IMG/VR virus record: IMGVR_UViG_3300045988_095445
Reading direction: 5' to 3' (one strand)
DNA length: 64,000 nucleotides
Source of the DNA: a virus
Of this stretch, positions 1 through 64,000 are shown piece after piece. Within the stretch, counting starts at the first letter, position 1; every line of letters starts with the position of its first letter. Position numbers and translations under genes: made by a program. The notes under the pieces were generated by a model. It had not been told where the DNA came from and did no database searches. It was given only the letters and a program-made list of their open reading frames with translations.

Positions 1-1
1 T

Positions 2-499
2 GGACAGGAGGTAGTAGTAAAGGGTATTTCGCTAATGGACGCCAATGTTGTTTCTGCTATTTTATGCAATTATTCAAAATTAAAAGAAGATAGTTATGAT
101 TAGTTTGAGGGAGATACATGGTATTTAATTCAATCATTTGAAGAAATATGTGATAAAGCTCTTAAAGACTTTCCAATCTATTTACGAATTGTTGAACTCA
201 AAATTGATAAAAAGTAGAATAACGAAATATAGGAAATATTAAAAAATGAGTTTGGTAAAACATATAGTGTTGAATATATTTCTAGCCTATGGAGAAATAA
301 GATTCCTAAACTCATTGCGGAAGAGGCTTTAGAAGATTTTTTACGTTGGTAGTATAAACAAAAAGGATACCCAATGAAAAAATGTTCTAAGTGTGGGCAA
401 TTAAAGCCAGCTCATAATCAATTCTTTTCAAAGAATAAGACAAGCAAAGATAACTTATATAGTATCTGTAAGCGCTGTCGCAATAAGAAAAGAGGTTAA
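2..499 (+). CDS. hypothetical protein with C-terminal C4 zinc ribbon. The 5' end lies upstream of the window.
   Basis: Continuous reading frame from the window edge to TAA at 497-499 if three in-frame TAGs are read through. The C-terminal CxxC...CxxC motif is KCSKCG...CKRCRNKKRG. Confidence 0.45.
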
Positions 500-505
500 T
501 TATAA

Positions 506-1675
506 ATGAGCCATTATTGTAAAAAATGTGGTAAAACTATGGATGATACATAGTTTTATACATCAAAAAATTTAGAGAAGTATCCTCCAGATGGAAAGAT
601 GGATATTTGTAAAAAGTGTCTTACTATGCACATAGATAACTGGGATCCAGAAACTTATAAATGGATTTTATAGGAGATTGACGTTCCATATATTAAAGAA
701 GAATGGAATGGTTTATTGGAGAAATATGGAAAAGATCCAAAGAAAGTTACTGGATTAACTATTATTGGACGCTATTTATCTAAAATGAAATTAAAGCAAT
801 GGAATAAATACGCTTGGGCAGATACAGAAACGCTAGAGAAAGATTCCATTGATAAAAAAGTTCTTAATATGAAAGCTCAAGGATTTACAGAAGATGAAAT
901 CCAAGAGCAGTTGTCTATTGATAGAACTCCTCCAAAACCAAAAGAATTAGAGGATGTTTAGGCCCCTGTAGGAACTCCAGAATATGAAGATCCAGAGGAA
1001 GATGATGATTTTGGTGATTAGCTAACCGAAGAAGATAAATTAGTATTACGTCTTAAATGGGGCCGCGGATATTCTTGGGAAGAAAGAGTAAGAATGGAGC
1101 AGCTTTACAATGATATGATGAGTTCTTATGATATTCAAGGAGCAGGCCATAAAGATACTCTTATTATGGTATGTAAAGCTAGTTTAAAAGCAAATTAGTT
1201 AATTGATGCTGGAGATATTGATGGCTTTTAGAAGATGCAAAAAGCCTATGATAGTTTAATGAAAAGCGGCAAATTTACGGCTGCTTAGAACAAAGGCGAA
1301 TCCGGTGAATTTGTAGATTCAATAGGTGAATTAGTAGCCCTTTGCGAAAGAGAGGGTTTTATTCCTAGATATTATACGGAAGGACCCCAAGATAAAGTAG
1401 ATAGAACTCTTTAGGATTTATAGCAATATACTCATACTCTAGTTACAGAGGAAATGAATCTTGGTAATATGATCGAAGCTTCGTTAAGAGAAATAGTTAA
1501 AGACAGAGAACGCGAGGCAAATATTGATGTTGAAGATAGCGATGAGGATGAAGATTTATTTAATTACGAGCATCCAGAATTAACAGAAGAAGATTATCAA
1601 GAGTATGAAGATATGAAAGAGTCGGAAAGAGACAAAGATGAGGAAATGTTAAATAATATATTAAAGGAGGTTTAA
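506..1675 (+). CDS. hypothetical protein with N-terminal zinc ribbon. Its position suggests a possible small terminase or packaging protein.
   Basis: ATG at 506 with an upstream SD. It is one continuous frame to TAA at 1673-1675 with several in-frame TAGs. ORF-track fragments 716..961 and 1454..1675 are in this frame. It sits immediately upstream of the large terminase. Confidence 0.45.
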
Positions 1676-1678
1676 TAT

Positions 1679-3424
1679 ATGGCATTAAAAGATTTATTAA
1701 ACCTTTCAAATAATAATAAGAAAATTGGTCTTTCCGAAGAAAGAGTTCGTGCGATAATTCCAGCAGCAAGATAGTATATAGCTTTTTGGAGAGAATATCC
1801 AGATATGTTTATTGACTTTTTGTAGACCGGCGGAGACGAGACAAGAAAAAAAGAAATTAATTTTTATTTTTATTAGAGAGTTTTCTTGCGGGCGGCCATG
1901 AGATATAAGTATGTATACATGGTATTTCCCCGTGCCTATTCTAAGTCATTCTTATCAGTATTGGTGCTTATGTGTAGATGTATATTATATCCTGGATGTA
2001 AGCTATTTATTACTTCTGGTGGAAAAGAACAGGCAGCAGGTATAGCAAAAGAAAAAGTCTAGGAAATTTGTAATGCGATTCCTGCACTTTAGAGAGAGAT
2101 TGATTGGCGAAGAGGTAAGACTTAGGAAGGAAAAGATTATTGTAAGTATATCTTCAAAAATGGATCTTATTTTGACAACGTTGCTGCTAGAGAATCTTCT
2201 CGTGGTAAGCGTAGACATGGAGGATTAATTGAGGAGTGCGTTGGTGTAGATGGAGATATTTTAAATGAAGTTTTAATCCCTCTAATGAACGTTGATAGAA
2301 GATGTTTAGATGGATCTGTTCATGAAGAAGAAACACTCAATAAATCCTAGATTTATGTTACTACTGCGGGGTGGAAAAACACATTCCCATATAATAAGTT
2401 GATTACTTTGCTAGTACGCATGATACTAGAACCCGAAAAGAGTATTGTAATGGGCGGAACATGGAGAATTCCTGTACTAGTGGGATTGCAATCCCGCAAC
2501 TTTGTATAGGAGTTAAAACAAGATGGTACATTTAATGAAGCATCATTTGATAGAGAGTATGAATCTAAATGGAGTGGCACCGTAGAAGATGCCTTCTTTA
2601 ATGGTGATGCTTTTGATAGAAGTAGAAAATTGCTTTAGCCTGAATATGAATCTTCCGGGCGCTCTTCTGCTCAAGCATATTATGTTCTTTCTGTTGATGT
2701 AGGAAGAAAGAAATGTCAATCTGTTGTATGTGTATTTAAAGTAACCCCTCAGTCTCAAGGACCAGCGATTAAGTCTCTTGTTAATATATATACTATGGAT
2801 GATGAACATTTTGAAGATTAGGCAATTAAGCTAAAAAGATTATATTATGATTATAAAGCTAAAATTATTGTTATTGACGGTAATGGACTTGGTGCTGGAT
2901 TGATGGATTATATGGTTAAACCACAAATAGTGCCAGATACCAATGAAGTTTTTCCTGATTTTGGTGTAGCTAATGATGAAGATGGAGAATACAAACGATT
3001 TAGAACAGATAATACAGAATATGATGCTATTTATGAAATTAAGGCAAATGCGCCAATTAATACCGAAGCCCATAGCAATGTTTAGACATAGTTGCGGGCT
3101 GGAAAGTTAAGATTTTTAATCGACGAAAAAGTTGCTAGAAATAAATTACTTGGTACTAAGAAAGGTCAAGCCATGAAACCAGAAGAGCGGGCAGAATATT
3201 TAAAACCATTCACTTTAACTTCTATATTAAGAGAAGAAATGCTAAATTTGCGAGAAGAAAATGAGGGCGTAAATATTATTTTAAAATAGGCAAATAAGTC
3301 TGTGCCCAAAGATAAATTCTCTGCGCTTGAATATGGATTATATTATATTAAATAGGAAGAAGATAGTAAACGCAAGCGTAAAAGTAGAAGATTTTCAGAT
3401 TTTATGTTTATGAGTGAGGTGTAA
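1679..3424 (+). CDS. terL: terminase large subunit (ATPase plus RNaseH-like nuclease)
   Basis: SD AAAGGAGG then ATG at 1679. It is about 581 aa when TAGs are read as sense. There is a deviant Walker-A-like PRAYSKS. The nuclease-domain motifs are YYVLSVDVGRKK and VIDGNGLGAG. The gene sits upstream of the portal. ORF-track pieces 2900..3085 and 3092..3289 are in this frame. Confidence 0.7.
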
Positions 3425-3801: not shown

Positions 3802-5427
3802 TTGTTAAAACGTCGATAGGAAGAAATAAGAGCTAAAGGTTTTGATCTACTAGATCGAGGTATTATTACTCGTTATCAATAGGAAGAAGATTTTTTGAAC
3901 TATGATACTGTTGATTATGCAAAAATGCGAGTTGGATTACGGTCTGTGGATGATGCGCTTATTAATCTAGGCACATATAAAAAGATAAATAGAAATTATG
4001 GAGATAAAAAGTTTGTATTAAATGCTATTTATAAGCATGATTACAAGACTTTAAGAGAGATTTCTAATTACTTTTATGAAAGTAGCGGTATTTATTATAG
4101 ATTATGTAAATATTTAGCCTTCTTATATAGATTTGATTGGTATATTACTCCATACACAGTAGATGCGTAGAAAGATAAAGATAAGCTATTGAAAGATTTT
4201 TCAAAGGTCTTACTTTACCTTGATAAATCTAGTGTGAAGAGAATGCTTGGAAATATATCATTAGATATTATTAAAGAAGGAGCTTATTATGGTGTAATTG
4301 TTGATTTTGGAGATAGATTTGCAATTTAGAAATTACCAGCTTCATATTGCAGAAGTAGATATTTCTAGGGCCCTAATCCAATAGTAGAATTAAATCTTTA
4401 GTTTTTTGACACTTATTTTGCCAATCCGCAATATAAAATCTAGATATTAAAGATTTTTCCACAGGATATTCAAAAGGCATATATTCTTTATAAACAGGGA
4501 AAATTAAAAGGGGATTATCCAGGTGATACTACTGTATGGTATCCACTAGATCCTAGTATTTCTGTAAAGTTTAGTCTAAATGATAATGAATTTCCTTTTC
4601 TAGCTGGGGTTATTCCTTCTATTATTGATTTGGATCAAGCACAAGAATTAGATCGTCAAAAGACAATGCAACAATTATTAAAAGTTATTATTTAGAAGTT
4701 GCCTCTTGATAAAAATGGAGATTTGATTTTTGATGTTGATGAAGCAAGGGATATTCATAATAATGCTGTAACTATGTTAAAACGAGCTATTGGTGTAGAT
4801 GTATTAACAACTTTTGCAGATATTGAAAAAATTGATACAAAAGATAATAATTCTAATACAACGACAGACGATTTGGAAAAAGTTGAACGTACAGTTTATA
4901 ATAACTCAGGTGTAACTCATAATTTGTTTAATGCAGATGGCAATATTGCAGTTACAAATTCTATTTTGACAGATGAATCTAGCGTAAGAGATATTCCTCT
5001 CATGTTTACAGATTTATTAAATCGAGTAGTAGAGAAATTTAATCGCAAAAATCATTATGAGTTTAGAGCGGAAATGTTAGAAACTACCTAGTTTAATTAT
5101 AAAGAGTTATCTAAATTATATAAAGAGCACGCTCAACTGGGTTATTCTAAGATGTTGCCGCAGATTGCTTTAGGTCACTCTCAATCAAGTATATTAGCTA
5201 CATTAACATTTGAGAACGAAGTATTGAATTTAGCAGAAATTATGATTCCGCCTATGAGTTCTAATACCAGAAGCGGAAAAGATTTGGGTAATAATAATTA
5301 GTCATCTAAAACTAATTCTTAGAATAAGTAGACAAGTTCAACTAATACTGATGGAGCCGGCAGGCCCAAAAAAGAAGATGGCGAAAAGTCAGATAAGACA
5401 ATAGCTAATCAAGAAAGTTCGTCATAA
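3802..5427 (+). CDS. portal protein (putative)
   Basis: TTG start at 3802 after GGAGGTGA. It is 541 aa and continuous through many TAGs, and ORF-track fragments 3895..4170 and 4699..5091 share its frame. It follows the terminase. The charged C-terminal tail is typical of portals. Confidence 0.5.
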
Positions 5428-7375: not shown

Positions 7376-8428
7376 ATGTTAGATAAAGCTAATTTACTTA
7401 GTTTAATGAAAACTGTCGCTAATGCAAATCCTTCTGGTACCTATAGCTATCAAGGAGAGTCTTTTAGCTATGACGCTTTAAATACCACTTTGCGTAATGA
7501 GCTAAATGAATTTGTTGGCACAGATGAACTTTATAGAGAAAATAAAAATACTCTATTCTCTTTAATTGAGCAGACTATGGATGAAGTTGTTCCTAATCGT
7601 TTACTCAATTCTTATGGCAATTTTGCTGAGATTAGAACTTTCGCACAAGGCGACAAGCCTGTATTTACTCGTAGAACTGGACTTACTCGCGCTAAGCAAT
7701 TCATTACTCGTGTGGGGCTTGCTGGTGTGTATGAGACCTTTAAGCTTGGTTCTGAGAGCTTCGAAGTTGGAACAAGCGCCATTGGTGGAGCTGCTCGTAT
7801 CGGATTTGAGGAGTTCCTTGATGGAAGAGTAAACTTTGCAGAACTTACTCAAATTGTAACAGAGGGTATGCAAGAGCTTATTTATAGAGAGATTGCTCAA
7901 GCTCTTATGGGTTCTATCAATCAGCTTCCCGCGGCAAACCGTTGTGCTGTTGCTGGTTTTGACGAACCAACTATGGATTATCTTGTAAATACTGCTACTG
8001 CTTATGGTCAACCAACTATTTATTGCACTCGTGAGTTTGCAGTAAAAATGATTCCAGATAATGATGCTTGGATTTCTGACAATATGAGAGATTAGTATTG
8101 GGGAACTGGTTATCTTGCAAATTACAAGGGAACTAGAGTGGTAATTCTACCTCAAACTCTTGAAGATGAGACTAACTCCAAAAAGATGATTGATCCAGGT
8201 TATGCTTGGATTATTCCTGGTGGAGCTGAGAGCCGTCCTGTAAAAGTTGCTTTTGAGGGTACTACCCACGTGCGCGAACGCGATGATAATGACGACTGGT
8301 CTCGTGATATTCAGGTTTACCGTAAGGTTGGTGTCGGTGTAATGATGGCGAATAACATCTTCTCTTATGTTGATACTGAACTTCAAGGCGAGCTTGATAA
8401 TACTAACCCAAATCCAAATAATGGTTAA
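7376..8428 (+). CDS. major capsid protein (putative)
   Basis: ORFs 7376..8095 and 8138..8428 are in the same frame, joined by a single TAG at 8096-8098. It is about 350 aa and is followed by a strong terminator. Position and size fit an HK97-fold major capsid protein. Confidence 0.5.
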
Positions 8429-12176: not shown

Positions 12177-13568
12177 ATGCGTTTTGGTATTCGTGAGATT
12201 TGCGATGTAGTACTTCGTGCCAAAAGCTATCAGACTTTAGGTAATCGTAAGTTCTATAAAAATGAACCAGTTTTGTACTTTGACACTTTAAGAACCTCTA
12301 CTCTTGAAGGTGCTGCAACAACTGTATACGCACAGGGCGGACGTGGATATACTAGATTGATTGCTTGGGAAGGTGAGCGTACTCTAACATTTACAATGGA
12401 AGATGCTTTACTTTCTCCAGAGAGCTTCTCTATTCTTTCTGGTGCAGGTCTGCTTGATGCAACAAAAGAAGCTCCAATTTACGTTCATCAAACTTCTCAG
12501 GTAGAAGTTGAAACAGCTAACACTATCGTAATTCCTGATAAAGCCTGTTGGAATGGATTTGCAGATCATGAAAATGAAATGTATCATCGTTCTGCTGACA
12601 TTTTTGTAATGGTATTAGGAGATGATGGTCAAGTTAATGCTGAACCATGCATTCCTGTTTCTGTTTCTTATACAGAGGACGGAAAATCAACTTTAACTTG
12701 CTATTCTCATGCGGGAGTGCTCCCATCTGGTACTATCGTTTTAGTTGACTATTATGTAAAGCGCACTGGTGGTGCCCAGATGATTGAGATTACCGCTGAT
12801 AAGTTTGGCGGAAACTATTATCTTGAAGCTTCTACTCTATTCCGCCGTGAGAGCGATGGCGTAGATATGCCTGCTGAATTTATTATTCCTAACTGTAAGG
12901 TTCAGAGTAACTTCACATTCAGCATGGCTGCTAACGGTGATCCATCTACCTTTACATTCACAATGGACGCTTTCCCAGACTACACTAAGTTTGATCAAAC
13001 TCATAAAGTTCTTGCCGCTATTCAGGTAATTACTGATGAAACTGGAGAAACCGAAGGTTCTCGTGAGCCATGCTCTGAGAATGTTGGTACTTATGAGAGT
13101 GAAGCCGCTGATGTAACTGTAAATTTTGTTTCTAACAGTGCCACAGAGGCGGAACTTGATGTAACTGGTACTGTAACAGGAAAGGCTTATGATATTGAGG
13201 CTTATGGAGATACAATTCCAGAAGCCGCACAAATTAGCCTCCAAATTCCAGTAGAGAGCGATAGTACCAAGTATACTGTAGTAATAACTAACCCAGCATA
13301 TGAGAAATACTTCTCTACTGATGACCGTATTGAGGGCAATACAAAGACTCAAACCGTAGATGGCGCAGAATTGGCAGATGGCCTATTAGTAATTCTTACT
13401 AAGGAGAGTAATACAACTCCTATTACAGCTAAGATTACTAAGATTAACGGAGACTTTGAGAAGAGTTATACTATTAATAACAAGCTCAGTTTTGCAGAAA
13501 GCACAAGCACTTATTCTGGCGCAAAAATGCGCAATAAGTTAGTCTCTGTTAGCGACGACACCATTTAA
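12177..13568 (+). CDS. major tail protein (sheath- or tube-like), TAG-free
   Basis: Intact 463-aa ORF with SD AAGGAGGAATTAGCTC. It has no TAG codons and higher local GC. A strong terminator follows. An Ig-like C-terminal region is present. It lies upstream of the tape measure gene. Confidence 0.5.
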   Translation: MRFGIREICDVVLRAKSYQTLGNRKFYKNEPVLYFDTLRTSTLEGAATTVYAQGGRGYTRLIAWEGERTLTFTMEDALLSPESFSILSGAGLLDATKEAPIYVHQTSQVEVETANTIVIPDKACWNGFADHENEMYHRSADIFVMVLGDDGQVNAEPCIPVSVSYTEDGKSTLTCYSHAGVLPSGTIVLVDYYVKRTGGAQMIEITADKFGGNYYLEASTLFRRESDGVDMPAEFIIPNCKVQSNFTFSMAANGDPSTFTFTMDAFPDYTKFDQTHKVLAAIQVITDETGETEGSREPCSENVGTYESEAADVTVNFVSNSATEAELDVTGTVTGKAYDIEAYGDTIPEAAQISLQIPVESDSTKYTVVITNPAYEKYFSTDDRIEGNTKTQTVDGAELADGLLVILTKESNTTPITAKITKINGDFEKSYTINNKLSFAESTSTYSGAKMRNKLVSVSDDTI

Positions 13569-15753: not shown

Positions 15754-15780
15754 TATGGGTGATAAAGGAGGAAAAGGATT

Positions 15781-28473: not shown

Positions 28474-28487
28474 GGAGTTGATAGTAT

Positions 28488-29228: not shown

Positions 29229-29248
29229 GAGAAAAAGGAGTCTTAATT

Positions 29249-29620: not shown

Positions 29621-29640
29621 AACTCGTCAGCCTCTTGGCC
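29597..29640 (+). terminator. rho-independent terminator
   Basis: GAGGCTGACGAGgagtaaaaCTCGTCAGCCTC followed by a T-rich tail. Confidence 0.55.
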
Positions 29641-34392: not shown

Positions 34393-34408
34393 GGAGGAGT
34401 AGGAGATA

Positions 34409-34999: not shown

Positions 35000-35013
35000 G
35001 GAGGTGTCAAACT

Positions 35014-36924: not shown

Positions 36925-36957
36925 TTTATATTTAGAGAGTATAAAGGAGGGCCTAAA

Positions 36958-44544: not shown

Positions 44545-45252
<708 letters not shown>

Positions 45253-49819: not shown

Positions 49820-50382
49820 TTAGATGTGCTTCCGAATCCACCAAGTCTTTCTCCAGTTGCATTATCGTCATCAGTAATTTGATAACTCTTAATAATTCCT
49901 TGTCCAATTTTATCTCCACGCTTTAACTGAATAGCAAAAGGAGATAAATTAACAAGCTGGAAAAAGATCTCTCCTTCATTATCTGGATTATCACAATAAT
50001 CGGCATCAATAATACCAACGCTATTTCCGCAAATAATCCAATGTTTAAGAGGAGTGGAACTACGAACACTTAATTCAAGATATTGACCAGGATTTAAATG
50101 ACATTTCATTCCTGTTGATACAAGAGTAATCTTAGACTTTAATTCTTTAGTAAGATTAGCCATATCATCAAGAGTAAAAGGGCTCACAAATCCATAAAAA
50201 TCCTTGTCACTATCTTTTTCAAAAATATGGTCTTGAATTTTAGAAGTTAAAAAATTCATTGGAGGTAGAACTGTATCCTCTGCGACTACGAAATCATAAC
50301 CTGCGGAATTGGCGGTTGCGCGGGTTGGAATAGGTAGATCAATGTCACTAAAGCGACTTACTTTCTCAAAATATACACTCAT
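49816..50382 (-). CDS. dut: dUTP diphosphatase (trimeric dUTPase)
   Basis: This is ORF 49816..50475 with an internal start at MSVYFEK. Motifs AGYDF, GIIDADY, RGDKIGQ and RLGGFGSTS are present. Confidence 0.8.
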   Translation of the reverse strand: MSVYFEKVSRFSDIDLPIPTRATANSAGYDFVVAEDTVLPPMNFLTSKIQDHIFEKDSDKDFYGFVSPFTLDDMANLTKELKSKITLVSTGMKCHLNPGQYLELSVRSSTPLKHWIICGNSVGIIDADYCDNPDNEGEIFFQLVNLSPFAIQLKRGDKIGQGIIKSYQITDDDNATGERLGGFGSTSK

Positions 50383-51271: not shown

Positions 51272-51814
51272 TTATTTTATTCTGTCAACAATAATTGCAC
51301 CAATAGCATTGCCTATTGTAACTACTATTAAAAATAATATTACATCAATAGAAAGCACACCTGCGGCCAAAGTGTAACAAAGATCTGCAATACAGTGTTC
51401 TCCGCCGAATAATATAAAACCTGTTACGCAGACTGGCACCATATAATCTTTATTTCTTTTAAACGAGGATACTGCCGAATATATAAATATACCACAAACC
51501 ATCCCCTTTAAGAAAACTAAATATAGTGGGATTGCGATCTTAGCAGAGACTAGAGATAGAGCGGCTGCGTGCGGAAAGGCTAAGATCCCGCACGCTCCAA
51601 TAATATTTCCTATTAAAATAATAAGATTATCTTTTATATCATCTTTGCTCTTGATATAACCAACCGAACCCGTAAATAATTTAAACTACATATTTAATAT
51701 AGTTAGTAGGCCAATGGAAAACATAATAGCTCCAACTATACCTCCAACAGATAAGTAGATATAGCTAGCTATTGCTATCATTATTCCTCCAAAAATACTT
51801 TTTATAAAGTTCAT
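51272..51814 (-). CDS. FNT (formate/nitrite transporter)-family channel-like protein, short form
   Basis: ORF 51272..51502 extends upstream through one TAG to an ATG overlapping the NrdG stop, giving 180 aa. FocA-like motifs present are KLFTGS, LIGNIIGA, FGGEHCIAD and VVTIGNAIGAII. Confidence 0.5.
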
Positions 51815-52284
51815 TTTAGGTAGATTATTTTTTGATTACGACTCCCTCTAAGCGGTTCCGTAATATCTCTTTCATGTTCAATATACGGCCCATCAATTAG
51901 CACATCAACTAATTGAAGTATATTCTAAATAACTGTATCTGTTGAATTTTTTAAATTTTCATATAAATATCCAGTCCATAAATAAACTTTTAAATCAGGA
52001 ATTGTTTCTTTTGCGGTTTGTATTACTAGATGGGTTAGAAATGTATTTTCTGGACATAGTGGCTCGCCACCCATAACGCATAAAGTTCTTTTAACTCCAT
52101 TCGCAGTGAGTCCTTCTAAGATTGAATTAAGAATTTCATGAGTAAATTCTTTTCCACCATCAAAATCCCAAGTCTCTTGATTATGACACCCTTTACATTT
52201 ATGGGGGCATCCTTGAGTAAAGAAACTCAAGGATACTCCAGGAGCAGCGGCGAAATCATTCTTTATAATACCTGCGTATTTCAT
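51811..52284 (-). CDS. nrdG: anaerobic ribonucleotide reductase activating protein (radical SAM)
   Basis: ORF 51925..52284 has the CPHKCKGC cluster. Reading through the TAG at 51925-51927 adds the conserved C-terminal ...LVDVLIDGPYIEHERDITEPLRGSRNQKII motif. Confidence 0.8.
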
Positions 52285-54533
52285 TCCATATACCCCACGT
52301 GTTTAACTCTATTATTTACTTCATCTTGTTTTCCTTTATTAAAAGCAGTCTTATAGTTGCCAGTTAAATAACCCGTTACCCTTCTTAACTGCTGAATCTC
52401 CTTACTACCACATTGAGGACATTTATCATTAAATTCGCCAGTATATCCACAATTCAGACAGGTGTCACATGGAACATTTATTGCAAAGTATGGAATATCT
52501 TTGTCCATAGCATAATTTACTAATGTTTCCATAGCATCAATATTCTTCTCCATACCAGTATCCAGTTCAACATAAGTAATACAACCAGCAGAAGAATATC
52601 CAGTTAATTGACTTTCAATATCAATTTTATCAAATGGAGAGATTTGATGCCATACTGGTACGTGCATAGAGTTAGTAAAGAATTCTCTATCGCTTACATT
52701 AGGAATAATACCATACTTATCACGGAATTTTTTAAGAGAGGTATAGCAAAGATTCTCGGCTGGAGTATAATATACTCCAAAATTAAGCCTATATTTTTCT
52801 TTATACTCTGCGCATCTATCTTTGAATAACTGCTCTATTCTTTTTGCTAATTTCATACCCTCTGGTTCGGTATGGTCACACCCAATAAGAATTTGTAAAG
52901 TTTCTGCTAATCCAATTTGTCCAAGACTCAACGTACCATGTTGTAAAGCGCTTCGAGTAGAAATTCCATCATATCCAGCCATTAAGCCATTCTCATACAT
53001 GAATTTTGCTGAATCCGCAGGTTGCGCGCAAATGTATTCAAATCTTTCAAGAAGCATATCTTTTGCTTCTTCAATTTTAATATTTAAAAGTTTCATAAAT
53101 CTTTCAATACCAATTTGGGTTCTTTCTTCTTGAGACAAATTTTTAATTTCATTCCAATTATCATTGTTATCTAAAGTGACAGCTTCCATAGCTATTGTTG
53201 GCATTATAATAGTAACAGGACAAATATTTCCTCTACCATCTTTCTATTGCTTTAAGCCATTAATATCAAACCCGTTAGCAGTTCTACATCCCATTGTAGA
53301 GAAATATGTACTTGGATCATTTACATCATAACCAGCATTACCAGACCAATCTACATTAGCATAGTTAGGATATAATCTAGTAGCGGTAGACTTTAATGCC
53401 AATCTAAACAAATCATAATTGGGGTCTCCCGGTTTTCTGTTTACGCCTTTCATACACTGGAAAATTCCACAAGGGAAAATTGAAGTTTTATGAAGTCTGC
53501 CAAGTCCTTCAATAGAAACTTCAAGAAGAGCTTTAGTCACCATTCTTCCTTCTGGAAGAGTACAAGTTCCATAATTAATAGAAGTAAATGGAAGTTGATT
53601 ACCAGAACGAGATTGAAGAGTATTTAGATTATGATACATACCCTCAACCGCTTGATGAACTTCTTTTTCTGTCATGGCAATAGCATATGAATATGCGTTT
53701 TTAAATTCCTTATAAATAGAATCTTCAATGGATAATTGATTACTTAATCTATCATCCATGCTAATGACTTGTTCAACATATGTTAATCCATCTATATAAT
53801 GTTTATAGAAACTCTTTCGTACATATGGAACCATAGTCCAATCTAAGTGAGTAGCAGATACTCCACCAAATTGTTGTAAACTTTGTAGTTGGAAAATAAC
53901 TGCAACGAGTTGGAAAGCGGTATTTACAGAACCAGCTGGGCGTACATCAGTTTGTCTAGTATTAAATCCTTTTGCAAGTAAATCATCGAAAGGAATAGAA
54001 AGACAGTTGTGCATACCTACGGCATAAGCATTTAAATCATGAATGTAAATCTCATTATTTTCATGATTAGCTCTAGATTTACTAGAAACTAAGTAATCAA
54101 GAGCATATTTTTTCATCTGTAAATCTGAGGCTGCCCCAACTCGTCCACCAAATGACATTTCATCGACGTTTGCATTTTGATTTTCAATATCAGAACCTTG
54201 CAATTTTGCAGAAAAGGCTTTAATAAAATCATCCTATCCATTTCTTGCAATTTCTCTTTTATATCTATATCTAATATATTCTTTAGCTACATCTCTACGT
54301 TCAGATTTCATAAGATAATCTTCAACCATATCCTGAATTTTTTCGACAGAAATTATATCATCAGAAGTCTTTGCTGTATATTTAATTTCATCTGCAATAT
54401 CTTCCGCAGTATCGTTTTCATATAATTTTCCATCTACCTCTATAAATGCCTTATTTATGGCATTAATAATACGCTCTTTATCAAAAGGTACTAAAATACC
54501 ACTTCTCTTTCTTACTTGAAGCATATATAACAA
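52281..54533 (-). CDS. nrdD: anaerobic ribonucleoside-triphosphate reductase (class III)
   Basis: The ATP-cone ORF (54234..54533), core ORF (53244..54203) and C-terminal ORF (52281..53204) are all in one frame. They are joined by TAGs at 54234-36 and 53244-46. The C-terminal Zn-ribbon CxxC..CxxC and glycyl-radical region RRVTGYLTG are present. Confidence 0.85.
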
Positions 54534-54590: not shown

Positions 54591-55163
54591 TTAATAAAAT
54601 TGTCCAAATATAGTATCAACGGCGACATCAATATCTTCTAAGGTGTCGTTTTTAAGAGTTTTATATTTTATATCATCAAGGAAATAAAAGTCCTCCGCAT
54701 CTGCTTTGTATCTTCTAATAATTTCATTTACGTCAGGATTTTCTTCTCTATTTAACTATCTTAATAATCTCTATTTACCTGCGGCCCGCACATAAAATAC
54801 ATAAAGCTCAATATTGTCATCTTCTTGTAGACATCTTACTCCTTCAGGGTTAAAGACCCCTATATTTATTTTGTCTATTGTTAGACTTTCTCTATCTGTA
54901 CCATAATGCCAATCATTAAATTCTGTTGCTTCTAGCATATCTCCATTAAGAACTTTTTTTGTAAATTCATCAATAGATAGAAAATAATAATTAACTCCTT
55001 CTTTTTCTCCTTCTCGCGGAGGGCGTGTAGTACAACTGATAATTTCATTGAAATAAGAAGGATATTTCTCCATAATACTATGGAGAATAGTATCCTTCCC
55101 ACTTCCTGCTTCACCCATTAACGCTACTATCTTCATCCTTTTCTTCTCCTTGTTTTCTTTCAC
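54591..55163 (-). CDS. gmk: guanylate kinase
   Basis: P-loop GEAGSGKDT and the TTRPPREGE motif are present. The frame continues through TAGs at 54771-73 and 54756-58 to TAA at 54591-93, adding a typical C-terminal helix (KNDTLEDIDVAVDTI). The start is possibly at an internal MKIVAL. Confidence 0.75.
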
Positions 55164-58100
55164 TTCTTAAAATTAAGTCTGTACCATTGACAATTTCATC
55201 AATGTGATAAAGTTGATGACCTCCAGAACTTGCATATTTCTTTGTTACAAATTCATCTCCGCGTCTAATTCCCTGAACAACAATCATATTACCTCTATTA
55301 AACCATGATTTTTCTATGACCTTTTTTGTGCCATCTTTGTTTCTTTGGAAAGTTTGCTTATCAAACAACGCGAAGTATTCTTGTCTAAACTTAACTGCTA
55401 CAATTCCAGTAGCGGTAAGAAGATATACCGTGCTTTTTACTTTATTTTTTGCAATACAAGTTCCGCAAATCTTATACAGCTTATAGATAGGAATTAATGA
55501 AGCACCTTTTTTAAATACCTTATCTACTTGAGGTTCTTCTGGTAAACTAAAGAAGTCTACAAAACCATACTTACTATTGTTGATATTGGATAATTCATGG
55601 CCATGATAATAAAAGCACAAAGATTCCATTTCCCAAGAAGAAATATTACCAGAAGCATATTTCTTCCAATCTTCCATAAAGATTGCAGTATTTAAATCAT
55701 CTAAAATCTTTTCTTTGTTTTCTGCAATCCATGCTCTAAATACATCCATGTAACTTTGATAAACTTTATCCCAAGATTTTATATCAATATACCAAATTAA
55801 ATTATCTGTTTCAAGCAGCTTCTCACAATCAATTTCAACTAAGAAGGTTATTGCTCTTTCATCTAGCTTATACTTATCTGCATTATACTAGTCTTTACAT
55901 TCTGCTTTTAAATATCTATTAAACTCATAAACTCTTTTTGGCATTATAAATCTTTCTTCATCAGGAATGAGATTATATCTCATTAATCCAGGCAGATTTT
56001 GTAAAGTAATCCTTTTTTTCTTGTCACAGGTAATCCATATATACTGAATCATCGCTTCCATTCTAGGATGGAATTGATCAAATCCTCCGCCCTTAATTAA
56101 GGAAATCATTGCTTGTTTATTTGGATGTACTTTATTAAGGAAGTCAATTAAAGATACATAGGGGCGATTATCAACAATAGTTTTAATTAAATCATTGTTT
56201 ACGTTAGATAACCCTTTTAAACCAAACAAGATTTGATTATGTTCAACATCTGGTTTAAAACCAAAATCAGAATAGTTAATGTCAACCAAAGACACTTTTA
56301 TACCAGCATTACGAATTTCTCCAATGGCTTTAGCAATCTTGGTATAATCTGATTGTTCTCCTTCTTCTTCATTAATGGCACCGCTATTGACGATAAGATA
56401 TGCTGTATTCCAATATACTGGGTTAAAATGGGTAGCAAGATAGAGAGTTTGCATACCAATAAAGCTATAAGCAAGAGCATGGATAATGGAGAAACTATAG
56501 CCCATTTGCGGGCCGATGCCATAATTCCATACATATTGTCCTAATGCTGGAGACTTTGCAGAATTTAAAACTTTTTCTCTTAATTCTGGAATTTTGTTCA
56601 TTTGTTTCTTACCAACTATTTTTCTTGCAGTATTAGCTTCAGCTAACGTAAATCCGCAAATATTTGGGTCTTGAAGCATAGTCATCATTTGTTCTTGGCT
56701 GGGAGGCACACCATAAGAACGTAAGAAATGAGGTTCAAGAATTTTTTGTTCTTCTTTTGTTAAACCCTGCTGATCCATTTCTTTATACCAAAGAGAAATA
56801 TTATTTTTAAAACGAACATACTTCTCCATTGGAGTTTCTGCACCCTTTTCCGCAGTCATTAGTCTCATCAATCCATTAGCGTCCGCCATTTCGTGCGGAT
56901 TTTGAGGCTTAATCTTTTTTGCTGCTTGAGCGCCAACACTAGAATCAAATTGGAAACAGCCAAGAACATCTCCATTGGCAAGAGCATCCCACATTTTTTT
57001 ATCGTCTTGCGGGAGGACAGATGGATGAAGGTATTTATTATAGACTTCACGCAATGTTAAATCTTTTTCAATAGCGCCATCTTTTTGCAATAGCTCAATA
57101 GTTTGAATAATAATATCCTGTACTGCTGTAAGCAAGAAATCGTACTTGACAGATCCAGCGGCTTCTTGATCATGAAGATCCCATTGAGTAATTAATGCTC
57201 CTTTTGGAGTTCTCATTACCGCGGCTGTATCAAAAATATTTTGATCAAATAAGATTACCCCAGAAGCGTGACTCGAACGTTTATTTACTAGTCCTTGAAT
57301 TCTAGTAATAATATCTAGTAATCCAGGATACTGATTCACAGTATTCACAAAAACTGAAACAGATTTGCGACCTTTTTCTGGATTACCATTAACCACATCC
57401 TCAATGGGCCATAGAAAACCTCTTTCTTGTGGAATAAGAGAACTCATATATTGAGCCATATCTACATCAATCCCGTCAGGATAATCTTCTGAACGATAGC
57501 CTCGACAGGCTGTTAAAATCGCAGATTTAGTTCCTTCTGTGCCAAAAGTACAAACTTGTACTAAGCCAAGTTCTCCTCGTTCTTTTCTAATCTCCGCGAA
57601 AATCTTTTGAATCTTTGATGGTGCCAAATCTAGGTCAATATCACCAAGTTCAGTTCTTTCATCGTTAATATAGCGCCAGAAAGGAAGATCCCATTCAATC
57701 GGATCTAGTTGAGTGATTCCAAGAAGATAATGGTTCAAAGCAGCACAAGCTGATCCTCGCCCCGCGCCTACGGTACTTCCGCAATTCCAGAACAAATCTA
57801 CATAGTGTTTTAGAGTATTTGGATATGCGAACATACAAGTTCCTAGTTTTTCTCCAATCACTCTCTTTACTCTTGCTTCTTCTTCTAATCTTTCAAGATA
57901 TCTAGGATCATTAAATAAACCTTTTTTCTGCAAAGCAATAATACATTCATTTACCCAATATCTTTCTTGAATATTATCGCTCCAAATCAAACTAGATAGA
58001 ACAGGATATTTATCTTCCCACTGATATGGTACAAACCCTTTTTTATAATCTGTTACTTCTACTTCTGGAATTGATTGATGACGTTCAAGAGAATAAAATT

Positions 58101-58992
58101 CAATTTTATCTTTCATTTCGTTTGAGCATTTAAAAATCCAATCAATTATGCCTTCGTCATAGCTCAATCTAAGAAGTTCTCTAGTTTCTTGTTCATCCAT
58201 CAAATGAGTAAACTCATAGAAACTATCAACCTCTCGTTCTCCACCTTTAGAATTAAGATACGCTTTATGAACATATCTATCTTCTTTTGTTAAGTAATGC
58301 GCATCTGTTCCAATACACATATTTATATTAAAAGCCTCAGAGATACTTAACATTCTTTTATTTGCGATAATTTGATCTGGATAAGAAGCGGGAGCACATT
58401 CAATGTAAAAATCATCTTTACCAAATACATCAATGCAGAATGTCATAAAATCAACAATTTGATTATGGTATCTCTGTGCGTTAATTTCATCTTTAATCTC
58501 TTCACAATTATGAAGATTTAAAATGGAACTACCAAGTTCTCCACCAATACAAGCAGTAGTCCCAATAATATGACCCTTAAATCTCTGCATTACATCTTTA
58601 AGCTCAGATTTAAGCAAAGGAACGCGTTCCATTCTACGGTCATAATATCCATTCATCCAAGCAATAGAGGACAACTCCTTTAGTCCTCTATATCCTTCTT
58701 TATCTTTTGCGATTAGGATAAAGTGATAATACTTTTGTCCTAAATCTCTTGTATCAGTTAAATAAATCTCATTTCCTAATGCAATCGTAAAATCGGGATT
58801 TTGCTCCCTAATTTTCTTTGCATATTTATTTACTCTCATATGCGCCGAAAGGCTTTCGTGGTCTGTGATAGCAATTCCCGTCAATCCGACTTCAATAGCT
58901 TTATCAATCAGTGCCTCAGGTTTATTTATACAATCTAGCAAACGCAAGTTACTAAACTCCGTATGCGCATGATTGTTAAAGTACATACCCAT
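55111..58992 (-). CDS. dnaE: DNA polymerase III alpha subunit, DnaE-type (N-terminal PHP domain)
   Basis: ORF 55888..58992 (PHP HAHTEFS...DHESL, polymerase core) and ORF 55111..55749 are in frame, joined through a TAG at 55888-90 with 46 sense codons between. Total is about 1293 aa. Confidence 0.8.
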
Positions 58993-61312: not shown

Positions 61313-61351
61313 TGTGATTGTTTCCTCCTTTAGTAAGAGGTTGCGCAATCA

Positions 61352-63103
61352 TTAAAAGTAATACTTCTATCTACTTATAATTTCATAATCTGTAATAATA
61401 ATTTGTGGTGTCACACTACCGAAGTATCTATTTACTTCTGGTTTACCAATCAAATTTATACTCACGCAACCTAATTCGCTAGATAAATCTTCTAGCTCCT
61501 CTTCGCTTGATTTAAACTTGATGCAAGTAACTCCATTTGGTAATTGAATCTTCAAAGTAGGATTCTTGTCTCGTGACATAAGACTAATCATGTCATTTGT
61601 TACTGCAACATTTTCTACCGCAATTAACGGTTCGTCGATATTCTATCCCCAAAGATACTTAGAATTACCTAGTTCTAATATATCTTTAGAATTAATATCT
61701 GACATAGAGTAAATAAAATCTACCTTATAGCTTGGTGAAAATTCTATATCTTTTAATTGATTGTCTGACCATATAATAAAATCTTCAAAATCTTTTTCAT
61801 AAATGCCAAAGCCAAAAGCATTTGCGTGCCCCTCAGCTAAAAAGACTAAATTTGAATCTCTTACAAATTGTCTAAAATCATTTAATTTAGACTTTTCGTA
61901 TCCTCTAGCTGATCCTTCCCAAGCATCTTGTCCATTGTTTACAGTCTTTGATAGGAGAATAACGGGGCGCTTATACTTACTCATTAATTCATTAGCAATT
62001 AAACCAGTAATACCTCTATCAACCTACATATCTTCTAGTTTAATTACTAAAAGTTTATGCTATAATAGATTTTTTTCTTGAATAATATTCTCTATTTGTT
62101 CAACTTCGGCATCTCTAGTTCTAGTCTAACGATTCTTAACATTAGTGCAAACTCTTAATGCTTGCTCTAATCTAGTTTCCTCTTGCCCTTTACATCCTCG
62201 TTTAGTAGAAGGAATAAGATCATATGCTTTCCATTCAAGCATACTTTCAAATAAAATCTACTTTTCATCTTGAGTACCCATACGAGTAATGGCATTAACA
62301 AGAGGAACAATATAAAACGCTACTCCAATAGGAGATAAATCTCCTCTGCCTAACTAGTAAGCATTTTTATCAGCCATACCTTTAATAAAAGGATTGCGGA
62401 GACTTGACCTCTGTAGCCCCTATTGAATAAGATAATGAGTTTCAAAATTTCTAATATCCATCATATCTCCTACAAGACCGGTGGCTACAATATCAAGGTA
62501 ATTGTCCGCATAGGCAGTTCCGCAAATACTATCCATATACTAACACAATTTATAAACTACTCCTACACCAGATAACGATTTTGTTGGATAATCGCATAAC
62601 TGATTATTAACAACACAGGCGTATTCAGATATTTTATCAGCTAAGTGATGGTCTATAACTAATACATCAATTCCGCGATTAGCCAATTCTTCATGCTCTT
62701 GATAGTCGTTAGAGCTTGAATCCGGTGCAATAACAAGAGAAATATTATCGGGGATTAATTCTGGTTTTATTCCATGAATTTTACCAGAATGGAAGTTATA
62801 AACAAACTTGTTAATTGCAGAGGGAAACTGCGCATGAAGATAATTTAGCAATAATGCAGAAGAGGTGTAACCATCGCAGTCGCTATCTACCTAGACATAA
62901 ATATAAGAGTCGTCTTTTAAAATGTGCTTAATAATTAGCTTAGCAGCGCTTTCAATATTATTAAGAAGTAAGGGAGATAAATTATCTTTTTCTGATACTG
63001 TTAAATAATGCTATATATCACCATATTTAATACCTCTGTTAACTAATACCTATTCTAAAGCACTATAATCCTAATTTCTTGGGTTAATTAATGAATATTC
63101 CAA
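61352..63103 (-). CDS. DHH/DHHA1 phosphoesterase, RecJ-like
   Basis: TTG start after TAAGGAGAG. ORFs 62540..62851 (DHH motif DVLVIDHH), 61643..61984 (DHHA1 GHANAFG) and 61367..61591 are one frame. They are linked by about 12 in-frame TAGs to TAA at 61352-54, giving about 583 aa. N-terminal motifs YSALEQVLVNRGI and VQVDSDCDGYTSSALL match RecJ N-terminal motifs. Confidence 0.7.
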
Positions 63104-63106
63104 TCT

Positions 63107-63391
63107 TTAATCACTCTCCTTATTATGTGATAATCCAGTTCCTTTGCAAGCTCTACATTTTATATAGTCATTAAGATCGTTTGGATCTGGCCTATCATCT
63201 TCCGCGCAAGATCTAGATCTTAAAACATGACCAGTTCCGTTACAGTACTCACATGCTTGATTAATTTCTCTAAGTTTCTCTAAACTGTCAAAATAGGGTT
63301 GTATTCTCTTATTATAATCATCTGCTAATTTTCCTATTTCTTTTTCTATTGCTCTAATAGCAGGTACTAGATTTAAAATCTCTTTACTCAT
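63107..63391 (-). CDS. small DnaJ-type CxxCxGxG zinc-finger protein
   Basis: CEYCNGTGHV...CRACKGTGL, two CxxCxGxG repeats, in an intact 94-aa ORF. Confidence 0.5.
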   Translation of the reverse strand: MSKEILNLVPAIRAIEKEIGKLADDYNKRIQPYFDSLEKLREINQACEYCNGTGHVLRSRSCAEDDRPDPNDLNDYIKCRACKGTGLSHNKESD

Positions 63392-64000
63392 AAGGAATTA
63401 TCCTTTCATTTAGTAACTCTTCAAAAATCTGCGGTCCCTTGTCTATAGGACTTGCTTTATATGGCAAAATCATTCGTTTGTCAAAGATAGCAGATATGCG
63501 TACATTCTTACTATATTTGTTATATATATGAATTAACTTTGCTTTCAATCTCTTAAATTCATCATCGCTAATTTCGACAAATTGTCTATCAAAAGCAACT
63601 ATGATTTCATTAACTCCTAAAGATTTAAGTAAATCTATATGATAACTAGATATACTACTTCCACAACAAGCTACAGATATATCATTATCGTACCCATAGT
63701 AAGACTGATACATAAGACAACTCTTTTCAGATTCAAATATAATTGCAGCTTTTACTTTTCTTATATTCTCTTTGCTATGGTTTAAATTATATAAATTCAT
63801 ACTTAAAGGATGATTATATAATTGTCTGTTCACCATAAGAGGTCTATATTTTCCATATCTTTCTGCATCTTCAGAAGATAATGTTCTTCCCCTAATTCCT
63901 ACTAATCTATTATTAATATCAAAGTGAGGAATTGTTATTTGTCCTCCTCCCGGATAATACCCAATAAAATTTCTTTTACTAACCTCGGGTAAGATTCCTT
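63384..64000 (-). CDS. DnaG-like primase (Toprim plus RNA-polymerase core). The 5' end lies beyond the window.
   Basis: ORF 63384..63836 has Toprim motifs (AAIIFESEKS, VAFDRQF). The frame stays open upstream to the window edge with GKYRPLMVNRQLYNHPLSMNLYNL (the DnaG KYLNSPET-like region). Confidence 0.6.
   Translation of the reverse strand, partial: GILPEVSKRNFIGYYPGGGQITIPHFDINNRLVGIRGRTLSSEDAERYGKYRPLMVNRQLYNHPLSMNLYNLNHSKENIRKVKAAIIFESEKSCLMYQSYYGYDNDISVACCGSSISSYHIDLLKSLGVNEIIVAFDRQFVEISDDEFKRLKAKLIHIYNKYSKNVRISAIFDKRMILPYKASPIDKGPQIFEELLNERIIPYE

What the first reader, a model, noticed from the sequence alone, without database searches (positions are those of the whole stretch)
1..64000. 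Genome-wide reassignment of the amber codon TAG to a sense codon (probably Gln). Only TAA and TGA terminate genes.
Across the window the ORF track fragments at TAG only, and the fragments are collinear and in frame. Reading TAG as sense restores full-length proteins, and conserved sequence continues after the TAG. Examples follow. NrdG regains its canonical C-terminal DVLIDGPY...RGS motif after the TAG at 51925-51927. The NrdD ATP-cone, catalytic core and glycyl-radical/Zn-ribbon tail are three track ORFs in one frame joined by TAGs at 54234-36 and 53244-46. DnaE is joined across a TAG at 55888-90 with 46 clean codons between fragments. SF1 helicase motifs III-IV lie across the TAG at 59588-90. 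Guanylate kinase regains its C-terminal helix. The tape measure gene reads as 2909 codons with more than 100 TAGs and no TAA or TGA. Every gene I could delimit ends at TAA or TGA. Recoded positions read naturally as Gln (QYQEAM, PQQQQPQ). This is the kind of lytic-phage stop-codon recoding described in recent metagenomic phage work. The exact phage, which recoding accessory genes it carries and where they sit are not determinable here.
Basis: partly seen in the sequence, partly recalled or inferred. Interest (0 to 1): 0.85.

Follow-up and report, generated by a model that had tools for sequence, protein, structure and literature searches.

The report
Gut phage reads TAG as glutamine
This 64-kb window is part of a roughly 146-kb gut phage genome that reads the stop codon TAG as glutamine, which is real and well supported but is an already described kind of phage code change (genetic code 15) in an already described phage group.

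Summary
With only TAA and TGA as stops, the window tiles into 50 tightly packed genes (about 91% coding). These hold 339 in-frame TAGs, and all 50 genes end in TAA (39) or TGA (11). NrdD, NrdG, guanylate kinase and the portal each match their family in a single stretch across their TAGs. DnaE aligns full length with a phage homologue that has no in-frame stop, and the helicase has family domains on both sides of its TAG.

TAG means Gln. In a 49-sequence TerL codon alignment, TAG columns pair with CAA/CAG 11 times more often than background. Eight other genes give 8-fold.

The window has no tRNA. Genomes about 99% identical to it carry one amber-suppressor tRNA (anticodon CUA) about 40 kb beyond the window's right end. 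Five of the seven base pairs of its acceptor stem match the phage's own tRNA-Gln.

TAG use is graded: 22.6 per 1000 codons in virion genes and 6.1 in replication genes. It is zero in a roughly 20-kb block (about 25 long ORFs) next to the suppressor.

This matches published work (Borges 2021; Peters 2022). It also matches the phAss-1/SPbeta-related group of Babkin 2023. It is a new member of a known kind, of modest interest.

The parts
1..64000 (.). Window of a roughly 146-kb tailed-phage genome decoded with TAG = Gln. It holds 50 genes, 42 of them with at least one in-frame TAG, and all end in TAA or TGA.
   Evidence: The window is 99% nt identical to IMG/VR contigs 3300045988_068993, _081499 and _080502, and 98.6-99.0% identical to _084596. 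Positions 2177-23568 are 100% identical to Logan SRR5165970_600.
1679..3424 (+). Large terminase (TerL), 581 aa, 14 TAG
   Evidence: tblastn finds TerL of Enterococcus phages at 50% identity and of phAss-1 at 44%. The codon alignment shows TAG interchanging with CAA/CAG.
3925..5427 (+). Portal protein, 500 aa, 10 TAG
   Evidence: phrog_2739 (portal) matches residues 34-499 in one stretch.
7376..8428 (+). Probable major capsid protein (YonB family), 350 aa, only 1 TAG
   Evidence: A precomputed Pfam hit to YonB sits on the 350-aa product called at the corresponding position of the 100%-identical contig L076. It is 52% identical to phAss-1 CDS 38085-39122. The capsid role is inferred from family and position.
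12177..13568 (+). Tail tube family protein (YomU_Tube), 463 aa, 0 TAG
   Evidence: Precomputed Pfam YomU_Tube; phrog_2729, virion structural protein; codon counts.
13628..15070 (+). Virion-module ORF of unknown function, 480 aa, 20 TAG.
15766..24507 (+). Tape measure protein ORF, 2913 sense codons with 100 TAG (2851 aa and 98 TAG from the first ATG at 15952)
   Evidence: Pfam PhageMin_Tail is recorded on the identical product.
24559..37740 (+). Tail, baseplate and fibre genes (8 ORFs), 88 TAG in all
   Evidence: The tail/baseplate/fibre function is inferred from position after the tape measure gene.
49340..49819 (-). RuvC-like resolvase, 159 aa, 9 TAG including three consecutive ones (codons 66-68)
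   Evidence: Pfam RuvC matches residues 5-151; TAG positions.
49816..50382 (-). dUTPase, 188 aa, 0 TAG
   Evidence: Pfam dUTPase; codon counts.
51811..52284 (-). NrdG activase, 157 aa, 1 TAG at 51925-51927
   Evidence: Fer4_12 profile positions 4-137 of 137 are matched across the TAG.
52281..54524 (-). NrdD anaerobic ribonucleotide reductase, 747 aa, TAGs at 54234-36 and 53244-46
   Evidence: A single alignment of residues 4-744 to PDB 8p23 with E = 8e-120; TAG positions.
54591..55136 (-). Guanylate-kinase-family dNMP kinase, 181 aa, 2 TAG
   Evidence: Pfam Guanylate_kin profile positions 2-178 of 182.
55111..58992 (-). DnaE-type DNA polymerase III alpha, 1293 aa, 1 TAG at 55888-90
   Evidence: Global alignment (40% identity, 1293 vs 1284 aa) with the uninterrupted DnaE of Enterococcus phage H1.
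59036..60232 (-). RecD-like SF1 helicase, 398 aa, 1 TAG at 59588-90, which aligns to Gln in the phage H1 homologue (FWADXIL vs LWADQVL)
61352..63106 (-). RecJ/DHH-family exonuclease ORF, about 584 codons, 13 TAG. The start is probably not an ATG.
   Evidence: Pfam RecJ_OB and DHHA1; ORF and translation.

Best explanation
The window belongs to a roughly 146-149 kb tailed phage of gut Bacillota. It is related to the phAss-1 / Enterococcus EF1 / SPbeta-like group and uses genetic code 15: TAG encodes glutamine, and only TAA and TGA terminate.

The phage itself carries the decoder, a single tRNA with anticodon CUA. This tRNA sits in a 16-19 gene tRNA array outside the window. Five of the seven base pairs of its acceptor stem, together with U72 and discriminator G73, match the phage's own tRNA-Gln(UUG).

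The likely mechanism has three steps.
1. [quoted passage not shown] Many of these lie in a block next to the tRNA array.
2. The suppressor tRNA accumulates and is charged with Gln by the host's glutamine pathway. It then competes with release factor 1 at UAG.
3. Genes that need read-through become expressible, roughly in proportion to their TAG load. Replication genes carry few TAGs; most virion genes and the lysis genes carry many.

Shown here: in-frame TAGs in conserved genes, TAG/Gln equivalence in alignments, the suppressor tRNA in near-identical genomes, and the graded distribution of TAG. Inferred: who charges the tRNA, competition with RF1, and the timing role.
For: - ORF repair is specific to TAG. 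It gives 50 genes, 339 in-frame TAGs and no TAG-terminated gene.
- Family matches run across TAGs in NrdD, NrdG, guanylate kinase and the portal, DnaE aligns full length with an uninterrupted homologue, and the helicase has family domains on both sides of its TAG.
- TAG equals Gln. The TerL alignment of 49 unique relatives gives Q at 36% of cells in TAG columns against 3.2% background, and columns 71, 230, 393, 428 and 553 contain only TAG, CAA and CAG. TerLs with no TAG have Q in 96 of 153 cells at the window's TAG sites. Eight other genes give Q at 32% against 4.1%. The helicase TAG aligns to Q in the phage H1 homologue. The summed TAG+CAA+CAG content stays at 3.9-5.0% in all modules.
- A tRNA(CUA) occurs in contigs 99-100% identical across the flanking exonuclease gene and belonging to genomes about 99% nt identical to the window: L152 130-205, L154, L155, L211-L217. 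It has a canonical cloverleaf. It is 84% identical to a phAss-1 tRNA-Sup-CTA; Babkin et al. report that tRNAscan-SE types the phAss-1 suppressor as Gln (PMC10607447). Its acceptor stem matches the phage tRNA-Gln(UUG) in 5 of 7 pairs plus U72 and G73.
- TAG use is graded: 22.6, 13.5 and 6.1 TAG per 1000 codons in the virion, middle and replication modules. About 25 long ORFs between 86.8 and 107.5 kb of contig _084596, just downstream of the suppressor, have no TAG, apart from a probable antisense shadow ORF. The two lysis genes that follow carry 2 and 9 TAGs.
- This is the pattern described by Borges et al. (bioRxiv 10.1101/2021.08.26.457843). TAG-to-Gln decoding was shown by proteomics in crAss-like phages (PMC9523058, abstract).
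Against: - No tRNA lies in the window itself. The suppressor is seen in near-identical genomes, not in the very molecule the window came from.
- Whole-sequence similarity does not place the suppressor with tRNA-Gln. It is 72% identical to the phage tRNA-Trp and 68% to tRNA-Gln(UUG), and its anticodon arm looks Trp-like.
- Nine of the 12 replication-module genes in the window, including DnaE, NrdD and the helicase, each need at least one TAG read. A clean 'early genes are standard-code' switch therefore does not hold here.
- The host is unknown, so its code, its RF1 and its route to Gln-tRNA are untested.
- About 14% of the related genome was not seen: 7.2 kb of contig _084596 (63,710-70,953) was read in no genome, and two further stretches were read only through the 99%-identical window.
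Confidence: 0.9

Rival explanations
1. TAG is a sense codon but encodes another amino acid (Trp, Glu, Lys, Tyr or pyrrolysine), or is decoded ambiguously.
For: ARAGORN labels the tRNA 'Pyl' from its anticodon. The suppressor's anticodon arm is one base away from the phage tRNA-Trp, and whole-sequence identity to Trp (72%) slightly exceeds that to Gln (68%). At poorly conserved sites TAG aligns with E, K, T, A and others.
Against: Q is the only residue strongly enriched opposite TAG, at 11-fold and 8-fold. E, K and W are at about background, at most 1.6-fold. Several alignment columns hold only TAG, CAA and CAG. The tRNA is an ordinary cloverleaf with a normal D-loop, not the atypical tRNA-Pyl shape. 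From my own knowledge, Trp-derived CUA suppressors in E. coli are charged with Gln.
Confidence: 0.04
2. The host itself uses a code in which TAG is sense, and the phage has simply adapted to it, as code-25 phages have adapted to Absconditabacteria.
For: The host is unidentified. 84% of the window's genes contain TAG, which is higher than most clades of recoded phages that infect standard-code hosts (26-71% in Borges et al.).
Against: Whole blocks of about 20 kb are TAG-free, and the phage carries its own suppressor. Neither would be needed in a TAG-sense host. Close relatives in the same TerL family have TerL genes with no in-frame TAG, or with TGA aligned to Trp. To my knowledge no bacterium with TAG=Gln is known. 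Relatives' contigs are binned with ordinary Bacillota MAGs.
Confidence: 0.04
3. The TAGs are not decoded. The genes are pseudogenes of a decaying element, or the TAGs are sequencing or assembly errors such as C-to-T miscalls of CAG.
For: None beyond the fragmented look of the genes under table 11.
Against: Only TAG interrupts the genes. There is no in-frame TAA despite 433 CAA codons, which C-to-T errors would also hit. Independent assemblies (IMG/VR, Logan) are 98.6-100% identical over the window, and MAG-binned contigs carry a 95%-identical TerL, so the interrupted gene set is reproduced. TAG positions are conserved or exchanged with CAA/CAG across dozens of relatives under evident purifying selection.
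Confidence: 0.01

Closest known systems
phAss-1 and the 'Phassvirus'-containing group of about 93-148 kb gut phages (Babkin et al. 2023, PMC10607447; GenBank OQ749652; NCBI taxon 'Caudoviricetes code 15 clade')
   Same: - TAG is read as Gln in TerL, the tape measure and many other genes.
- The tape measure protein is about 3000 aa.
- Both carry DnaE-type polymerase, NrdD/NrdG and ThyX.
- Both have a large tRNA array with Sup-CTA beside NAD-salvage genes.
- A homologous suppressor tRNA is 84% identical.
- No phage aminoacyl-tRNA synthetase is found.
- Relatives include Enterococcus phage EF1 and the SPbeta-like phages.
   Different: - TerL is only 44% identical at the amino-acid level, and megablast finds no nucleotide match in the phage collection, so this phage is not in the proposed Phassvirus genus.
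- GC is 33-35% here against 44.5%.
- It has one suppressor gene rather than two or three.
- Suppressor placement differs: two of phAss-1's three Sup-CTA genes lie beside NrdD, and nothing lies there here.
- By size and GC it resembles the divergent TAG-recoded members BK048656_ctOa11 (147,880 bp, 35.3% GC, with Sup-CTA) and BK051641_ctUes22 (146,931 bp, 33.0%) listed in that paper. I could not test sequence identity to them.
Stop-codon-recoded gut phage clades of Borges et al. (bioRxiv 10.1101/2021.08.26.457843), especially the 'Agate' clade
   Same: - Low-GC gut phage with genome size inside Agate's 154 +/- 27 kb.
- Predicted Firmicutes-type host.
- One clade holds TAG-recoded members, TGA-recoded members and members whose TerL has no in-frame stop.
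- Structural and lysis genes are heavily recoded, and replication genes variably so.
- The suppressor tRNA sits in genome regions free of the recoded stop.
   Different: No RF2 gene was found, whereas two TAG-recoded Agate phages have one.
TAG-recoded crAss-like phages (code 15; Peters et al. 2022, PMC9523058)
   Same: The reassignment is the same (TAG to Gln) and has been confirmed there by proteomics. The late-gene bias is the same.
   Different: The lineage and host phylum are unrelated (Crassvirales on Bacteroidota, against a phage related to long-tailed siphoviruses on probable Bacillota). No proteomic evidence exists for this phage.

Membership tests
Code-15 (TAG to Gln) recoded Caudoviricetes | In-frame TAGs inside conserved genes, with homology continuing across them | tested here: met
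   NrdD, NrdG, guanylate kinase and the portal each match their family in a single stretch across the TAG. DnaE aligns globally with an uninterrupted homologue, and the helicase has family domains on both sides of its TAG. In all, 339 TAGs lie in 42 of 50 genes.
Code-15 (TAG to Gln) recoded Caudoviricetes | TAG positions align with Gln in homologues | tested here: met
   Q is enriched 11-fold in TerL and 8-fold in eight other genes. Some columns hold only TAG, CAA and CAG.
Code-15 (TAG to Gln) recoded Caudoviricetes | Genes terminate only at TAA or TGA | tested here: met
   39 genes end in TAA and 11 in TGA. There is no excess of TAG near C-termini.
Code-15 (TAG to Gln) recoded Caudoviricetes | Phage-encoded amber suppressor tRNA (anticodon CUA). 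This is common in the family but not universal: about 40% of TAG-recoded genomes in Borges et al. | tested here: met
   Absent from the window. Present once in genomes about 99% identical to it.
Code-15 (TAG to Gln) recoded Caudoviricetes | Recoded codon concentrated in late (structural and lysis) genes | tested here: met
   22.6 against 6.1 TAG per 1000 codons. The lysis genes carry 2 and 9 TAGs next to a TAG-free block. However, the probable capsid and tube proteins carry 1 and 0 TAGs.
Code-15 (TAG to Gln) recoded Caudoviricetes | Gln actually inserted at UAG (peptide evidence), in a host that uses the standard code | not testable with these tools
   This needs proteomics and host identification. 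The only host hints are MAG bins of Oscillospiraceae, Eubacterium and Lachnospiraceae.
Proposed genus Phassvirus (phAss-1, ctckW2, ct6IQ4) | High nucleotide identity and shared synteny with phAss-1 (members are 80-86% identical to one another) | tested here: not met
   No megablast match in the phage collection. TerL is 44% and the probable capsid protein 52% identical at the amino-acid level. GC is 33% against 44.5%.
Wider phAss-1 / EF1 / SPbeta-related monophyletic group (Babkin 2023) | Shared signature proteins (TerL, capsid, tape measure of about 3000 aa, DnaE) and module layout | tested here: met
   tblastn hits to phAss-1 and to Enterococcus phages EF1, H1 and VRE9 for TerL, the capsid candidate, the tube and DnaE. 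SPbeta Yon/Yom Pfam families hit the structural genes. No phylogeny was computed.
Pyrrolysine decoding of UAG | Atypical tRNA-Pyl architecture together with pylS/pylBCD genes | tested here: not met
   The tRNA(CUA) is a canonical cloverleaf. I saw no pyl-like gene when reading the ORF translations of the window and loci, which was not a profile search. TAG aligns to Gln.

The most novel reading that the evidence does not exclude
TAG load may act as a graded translational programme rather than a two-state early/late switch. A TAG-free block beside the single suppressor gene would be translated first. Essential replication enzymes with one or two TAGs would then be gated, or first made as truncated forms; DnaE, for example, has its only TAG at codon 1035 of 1293. 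Heavily recoded tail, lysis and recombination genes would come last. The most abundant virion proteins (probable capsid, tube) stay nearly TAG-free because suppression by one tRNA gene competing with RF1 is a limiting resource.
Probability: 0.2. Interest if true: 0.5.

Novelty: new member of a known kind. Interest (0 to 1): 0.3.

Why it matters
The practical value is in annotation. Under table 11 this phage is shredded into fragments, and such fragments already sit in reference resources: two PHROG families of 'unknown function' match the two halves of this TerL. Flagging the lineage as code 15 restores about 50 full-length genes in this window alone.

Biologically it adds a well-documented Bacillota-type example to a known phenomenon. 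It also offers a useful natural comparison set: one TerL family holds TAG-recoded members, TGA-recoded members and members with no in-frame stop in TerL. It does not change the current picture of phage stop-codon recoding.

Tried and rejected
- Megablast of 24 kb of the window against 50,697 GenBank phage records found nothing. Only distant blastn and tblastn hits exist.
- PDB sequence searches were uninformative about the identity of the TAG residue. NrdD's two TAGs fall at variable positions (K/A and T/V), and the NrdG hits cover only the N-terminus. The capsid and tube candidates have no PDB relatives by sequence.
- Whole-sequence tRNA similarity did not settle the suppressor's isotype, with Trp at 72% and Gln at 68%. 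I relied on the acceptor stem and on the protein alignments instead.
- I first took the 98-kb contig _068993, which has no tRNA, to be a complete genome. I rejected that because its ends do not overlap and the 146-kb contig _084596 carries about 50 kb more between them, including the tRNA array.
- A scan for release-factor GGQ motifs in 3.3 Mb of fetched loci found none. This is a motif test, not a profile search.
- Rfam found nothing in the window at gathering thresholds.
- The local Pfam copy lacks the SPbeta Yon/Yom families seen in the precomputed hits, so the capsid assignment remains an inference.
- Some relatives I first called 'standard code' have low table-11 coding density (L055, L057, L037) and may be lightly recoded elsewhere. 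I therefore describe them only as having TAG-free TerL genes.

Full report
**1. The observation**

The window has 33.4% GC. Under the bacterial code, stop-to-stop ORFs of at least 100 aa cover only 48% of the bases, and the longest is 1045 codons. If only TAA and TGA are stops, a collinear set of 50 ORFs tiles about 91% of the window. There are 24 on the + strand from 2 to 37740, a mixed middle section, and 12 on the - strand from 49340 to the end.

These ORFs hold 19,348 sense codons, of which 339 are TAG. In the +1 and +2 frames of the same genes, TAA plus TGA occur at 50 and 113 per 1000 codons, so stop-free runs of this length are not chance. Making TGA sense instead does not repair the genes. 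All 50 genes end in TAA (39) or TGA (11).

The tape-measure ORF 15766-24507 has 2913 sense codons and 100 TAGs.

**2. Homology continues across the TAGs**

- NrdD residues 4-744 align in one stretch to the solved NrdD 8p23, E = 8e-120.
- NrdG covers Fer4_12 profile positions 4-137 of 137, and the kinase covers Guanylate_kin positions 2-178 of 182.
- The portal matches phrog_2739 over residues 34-499, across ten TAGs.
- DnaE (1293 aa) aligns globally at 40% identity with the uninterrupted 1284-aa DnaE of Enterococcus phage H1. The helicase TAG lies opposite Gln in H1's RecD-like helicase.

**3. Which amino acid**

I fetched 75 loci encoding relatives of TerL from IMG/VR and made a codon-aware alignment of 49 unique sequences. 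In columns where any member has TAG, the other members have Gln in 36% of cells against a 3.2% background, an 11-fold enrichment. No other residue exceeds 1.7-fold. Columns 71, 230, 393, 428 and 553 contain only TAG, CAA and CAG.

At the window's own 14 TerL TAG sites, eleven relatives whose TerL has no TAG carry Q in 96 of 153 cells. Eight other genes, compared by tblastn with those relatives, give Q at 32% against 4.1%.

There is also an internal check. TAG+CAA+CAG is 3.9-5.0% of codons in all three modules. CAA+CAG alone would leave the virion module at 2.4%. TAG therefore encodes Gln.

**4. What the element is**

The window is 99% identical to several IMG/VR gut contigs. Positions 2177-23568 are 100% identical to a Logan contig from SRR5165970.

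The structural genes carry SPbeta Yon/Yom Pfam families. TerL is 50% identical to TerL of Enterococcus phages VRE9_4 and H1, and 44% identical to that of phAss-1. phAss-1 is a 136-kb gut phage already described as using TAG=Gln with three tRNA-Sup-CTA genes and a 3149-aa tape measure. It sits in a monophyletic group that also holds EF1 and divergent TAG-recoded genomes of 147-148 kb with 33-35% GC (PMC10607447). NCBI taxonomy already has a 'Caudoviricetes code 15 clade'.

Contigs of 148-149 kb carrying a 95%-identical TerL are binned in Oscillospiraceae and Eubacterium MAGs. This is a weak hint that the host is a member of the Bacillota.

**5. The decoder**

The window has no tRNA, and neither do the 10-kb flanks of TerL or of the primase gene in dozens of relatives. 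I walked outward through near-identical contigs.

The 146,360-bp contig _084596 shows the window to be about 44% of the genome. About 40 kb beyond the window's right end lies a tRNA array of 16-19 genes. It includes tRNA-Gln(UUG), tRNA-Gln(CUG) and one tRNA with anticodon CUA. As in phAss-1, the array lies beside NAD-salvage genes.

The CUA tRNA is a normal cloverleaf with G73 and an unpaired U1/U72. It is 84% identical to one phAss-1 suppressor. It shares 5 of 7 acceptor pairs, plus U72 and G73, with the phage's own tRNA-Gln(UUG), while its anticodon arm resembles tRNA-Trp. From my own knowledge, both Gln-derived and Trp-derived CUA suppressors are glutaminylated in E. coli.

I found no release-factor motif, and I saw no aminoacyl-tRNA synthetase when reading the ORFs. 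About 86% of the related genome was covered.

**6. Distribution and likely mechanism**

TAG density is 22.6 per 1000 codons in the virion module, 13.5 in the middle module and 6.1 in the replication module. TAG supplies 49%, 27% and 16% of Gln-type codons respectively.

Outside the window, about 25 long ORFs from 86.8 to 107.5 kb of _084596, just downstream of the suppressor, have no TAG at all (one probable antisense shadow ORF aside). This block includes NAD-salvage genes, a Thg1-like gene, a polynucleotide kinase and an RNA ligase, all assigned by my reading of the translations. The two lysis genes that follow carry 2 and 9 TAGs.

This fits the published model. Standard-code-compatible genes and the suppressor are expressed first, and recoded structural and lysis genes afterwards.

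Two details depart from a simple switch:
- Nine of the 12 replication-module genes in the window need at least one TAG read. RuvC has 9 and the RecJ-like gene has 13.
- The probable capsid and tube proteins are almost TAG-free.

The charging enzyme, the competition with RF1 and the timing are all inferences.

**7. Rivals**

- *Another amino acid or pyrrolysine.* Disfavoured by the alignments and by the shape of the tRNA.
- *A TAG-sense host.* Disfavoured by the TAG-free blocks, by the phage's own suppressor, and by close relatives whose TerL has no TAG or has TGA aligned to Trp.
- *Pseudogenes or C-to-T artefacts.* Excluded because only TAG interrupts genes despite 433 CAA codons, and because independent assemblies reproduce the interrupted gene set.

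**8. Verdict**

The phenomenon, the mechanism class and the phage group are all already described. This is a further member, possibly one already catalogued as a BK-series genome. Interest is modest. The main practical value is correct annotation.

Noticed in passing
window 38881-42751 (- strand): A complete diversity-generating retroelement. It has a reverse transcriptase at 38881-40098 (Pfam RVT_1), an Avd-sized ORF at 40538-41032, a template repeat at 40405-40507 and a variable repeat at 41128-41230. The repeats are 103 nt long and 87% identical, and every mismatch is an adenine in the template. The variable repeat lies at the 3' end of the target gene 41114-42751 (Big_3 + DUF6273). All three genes contain TAG codons.
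   Followed up: yes
window 44169-45280: A small serine recombinase or invertase with an '[11 protein letters not shown]' N-terminus. Its start is probably a GTG near 44620, not the first ATG. It is flanked by 30-nt inverted repeats (44169-44198 and 45251-45280, 87% complementary), and one arm lies inside the 3' end of the upstream ORF 43867-44265. This may be an invertible segment.
   Followed up: partly
window 51272-51814 (- strand): A formate/nitrite-transporter family membrane protein (Pfam Form_Nir_trans, E = 4e-15) is encoded directly beside NrdG/NrdD. Class III ribonucleotide reductase uses formate as its reductant, so this could be a functional pairing.
   Followed up: no
L030, L031, L038, L058, L071 (TerL at the match coordinates): Within the same TerL family (60-71% identical to the window's TerL), some members have no TAG but carry in-frame TGA codons. 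Most of these align to conserved Trp; column 304, for example, has W in all 65 other sequences. Other members have neither TAG nor TGA in frame. Three coding states therefore occur in one clade.
   Followed up: partly
window 1679-3424: TerL hits two PHROG families annotated 'unknown function': phrog_15503 over residues 5-218 and phrog_24618 over residues 353-578. These families look as if they were built from table-11 fragments of recoded terminases.
   Followed up: no
L152 956-1032 and 1150-1236; L212 1-14814; L216 2331-2646: Next to the suppressor lie two oddly built tRNAs. One has anticodon CAA but no long variable arm, so it is unlike a normal tRNA-Leu. The other is an 87-nt tRNA-Cys(GCA) with a long variable arm and U73. 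An 87%-related genome (L216) and a distant relative (L174) also encode a tmRNA inside the tRNA array.
   Followed up: no
L147 1519-9851 (contig _084596, about 95.7-104.0 kb): The TAG-free block encodes NAD+ salvage enzymes (nicotinamidase, PRPP synthetase, NAMPT, NadE-like). It also encodes possible RNA-repair proteins (RNA ligase, Thg1-like tRNA-His guanylyltransferase, polynucleotide kinase). I assigned these by reading the translations only.
   Followed up: no
window 60545-61312 (- strand): A TAG-free 'phage tail lysozyme' domain protein (Pfam Phage_lysozyme2) with an N-terminal signal-like segment sits inside the replication module, away from the tail genes.
   Followed up: no
L185, L186 (GenBank CALWOP010000177.1 and CALCFD010000051.1): Contigs of phage-genome length (149.0 and 147.8 kb) with a TerL 95% identical to the window's are deposited as parts of Oscillospiraceae and Eubacterium MAGs. 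This is either a host hint or a binning error.
   Followed up: no
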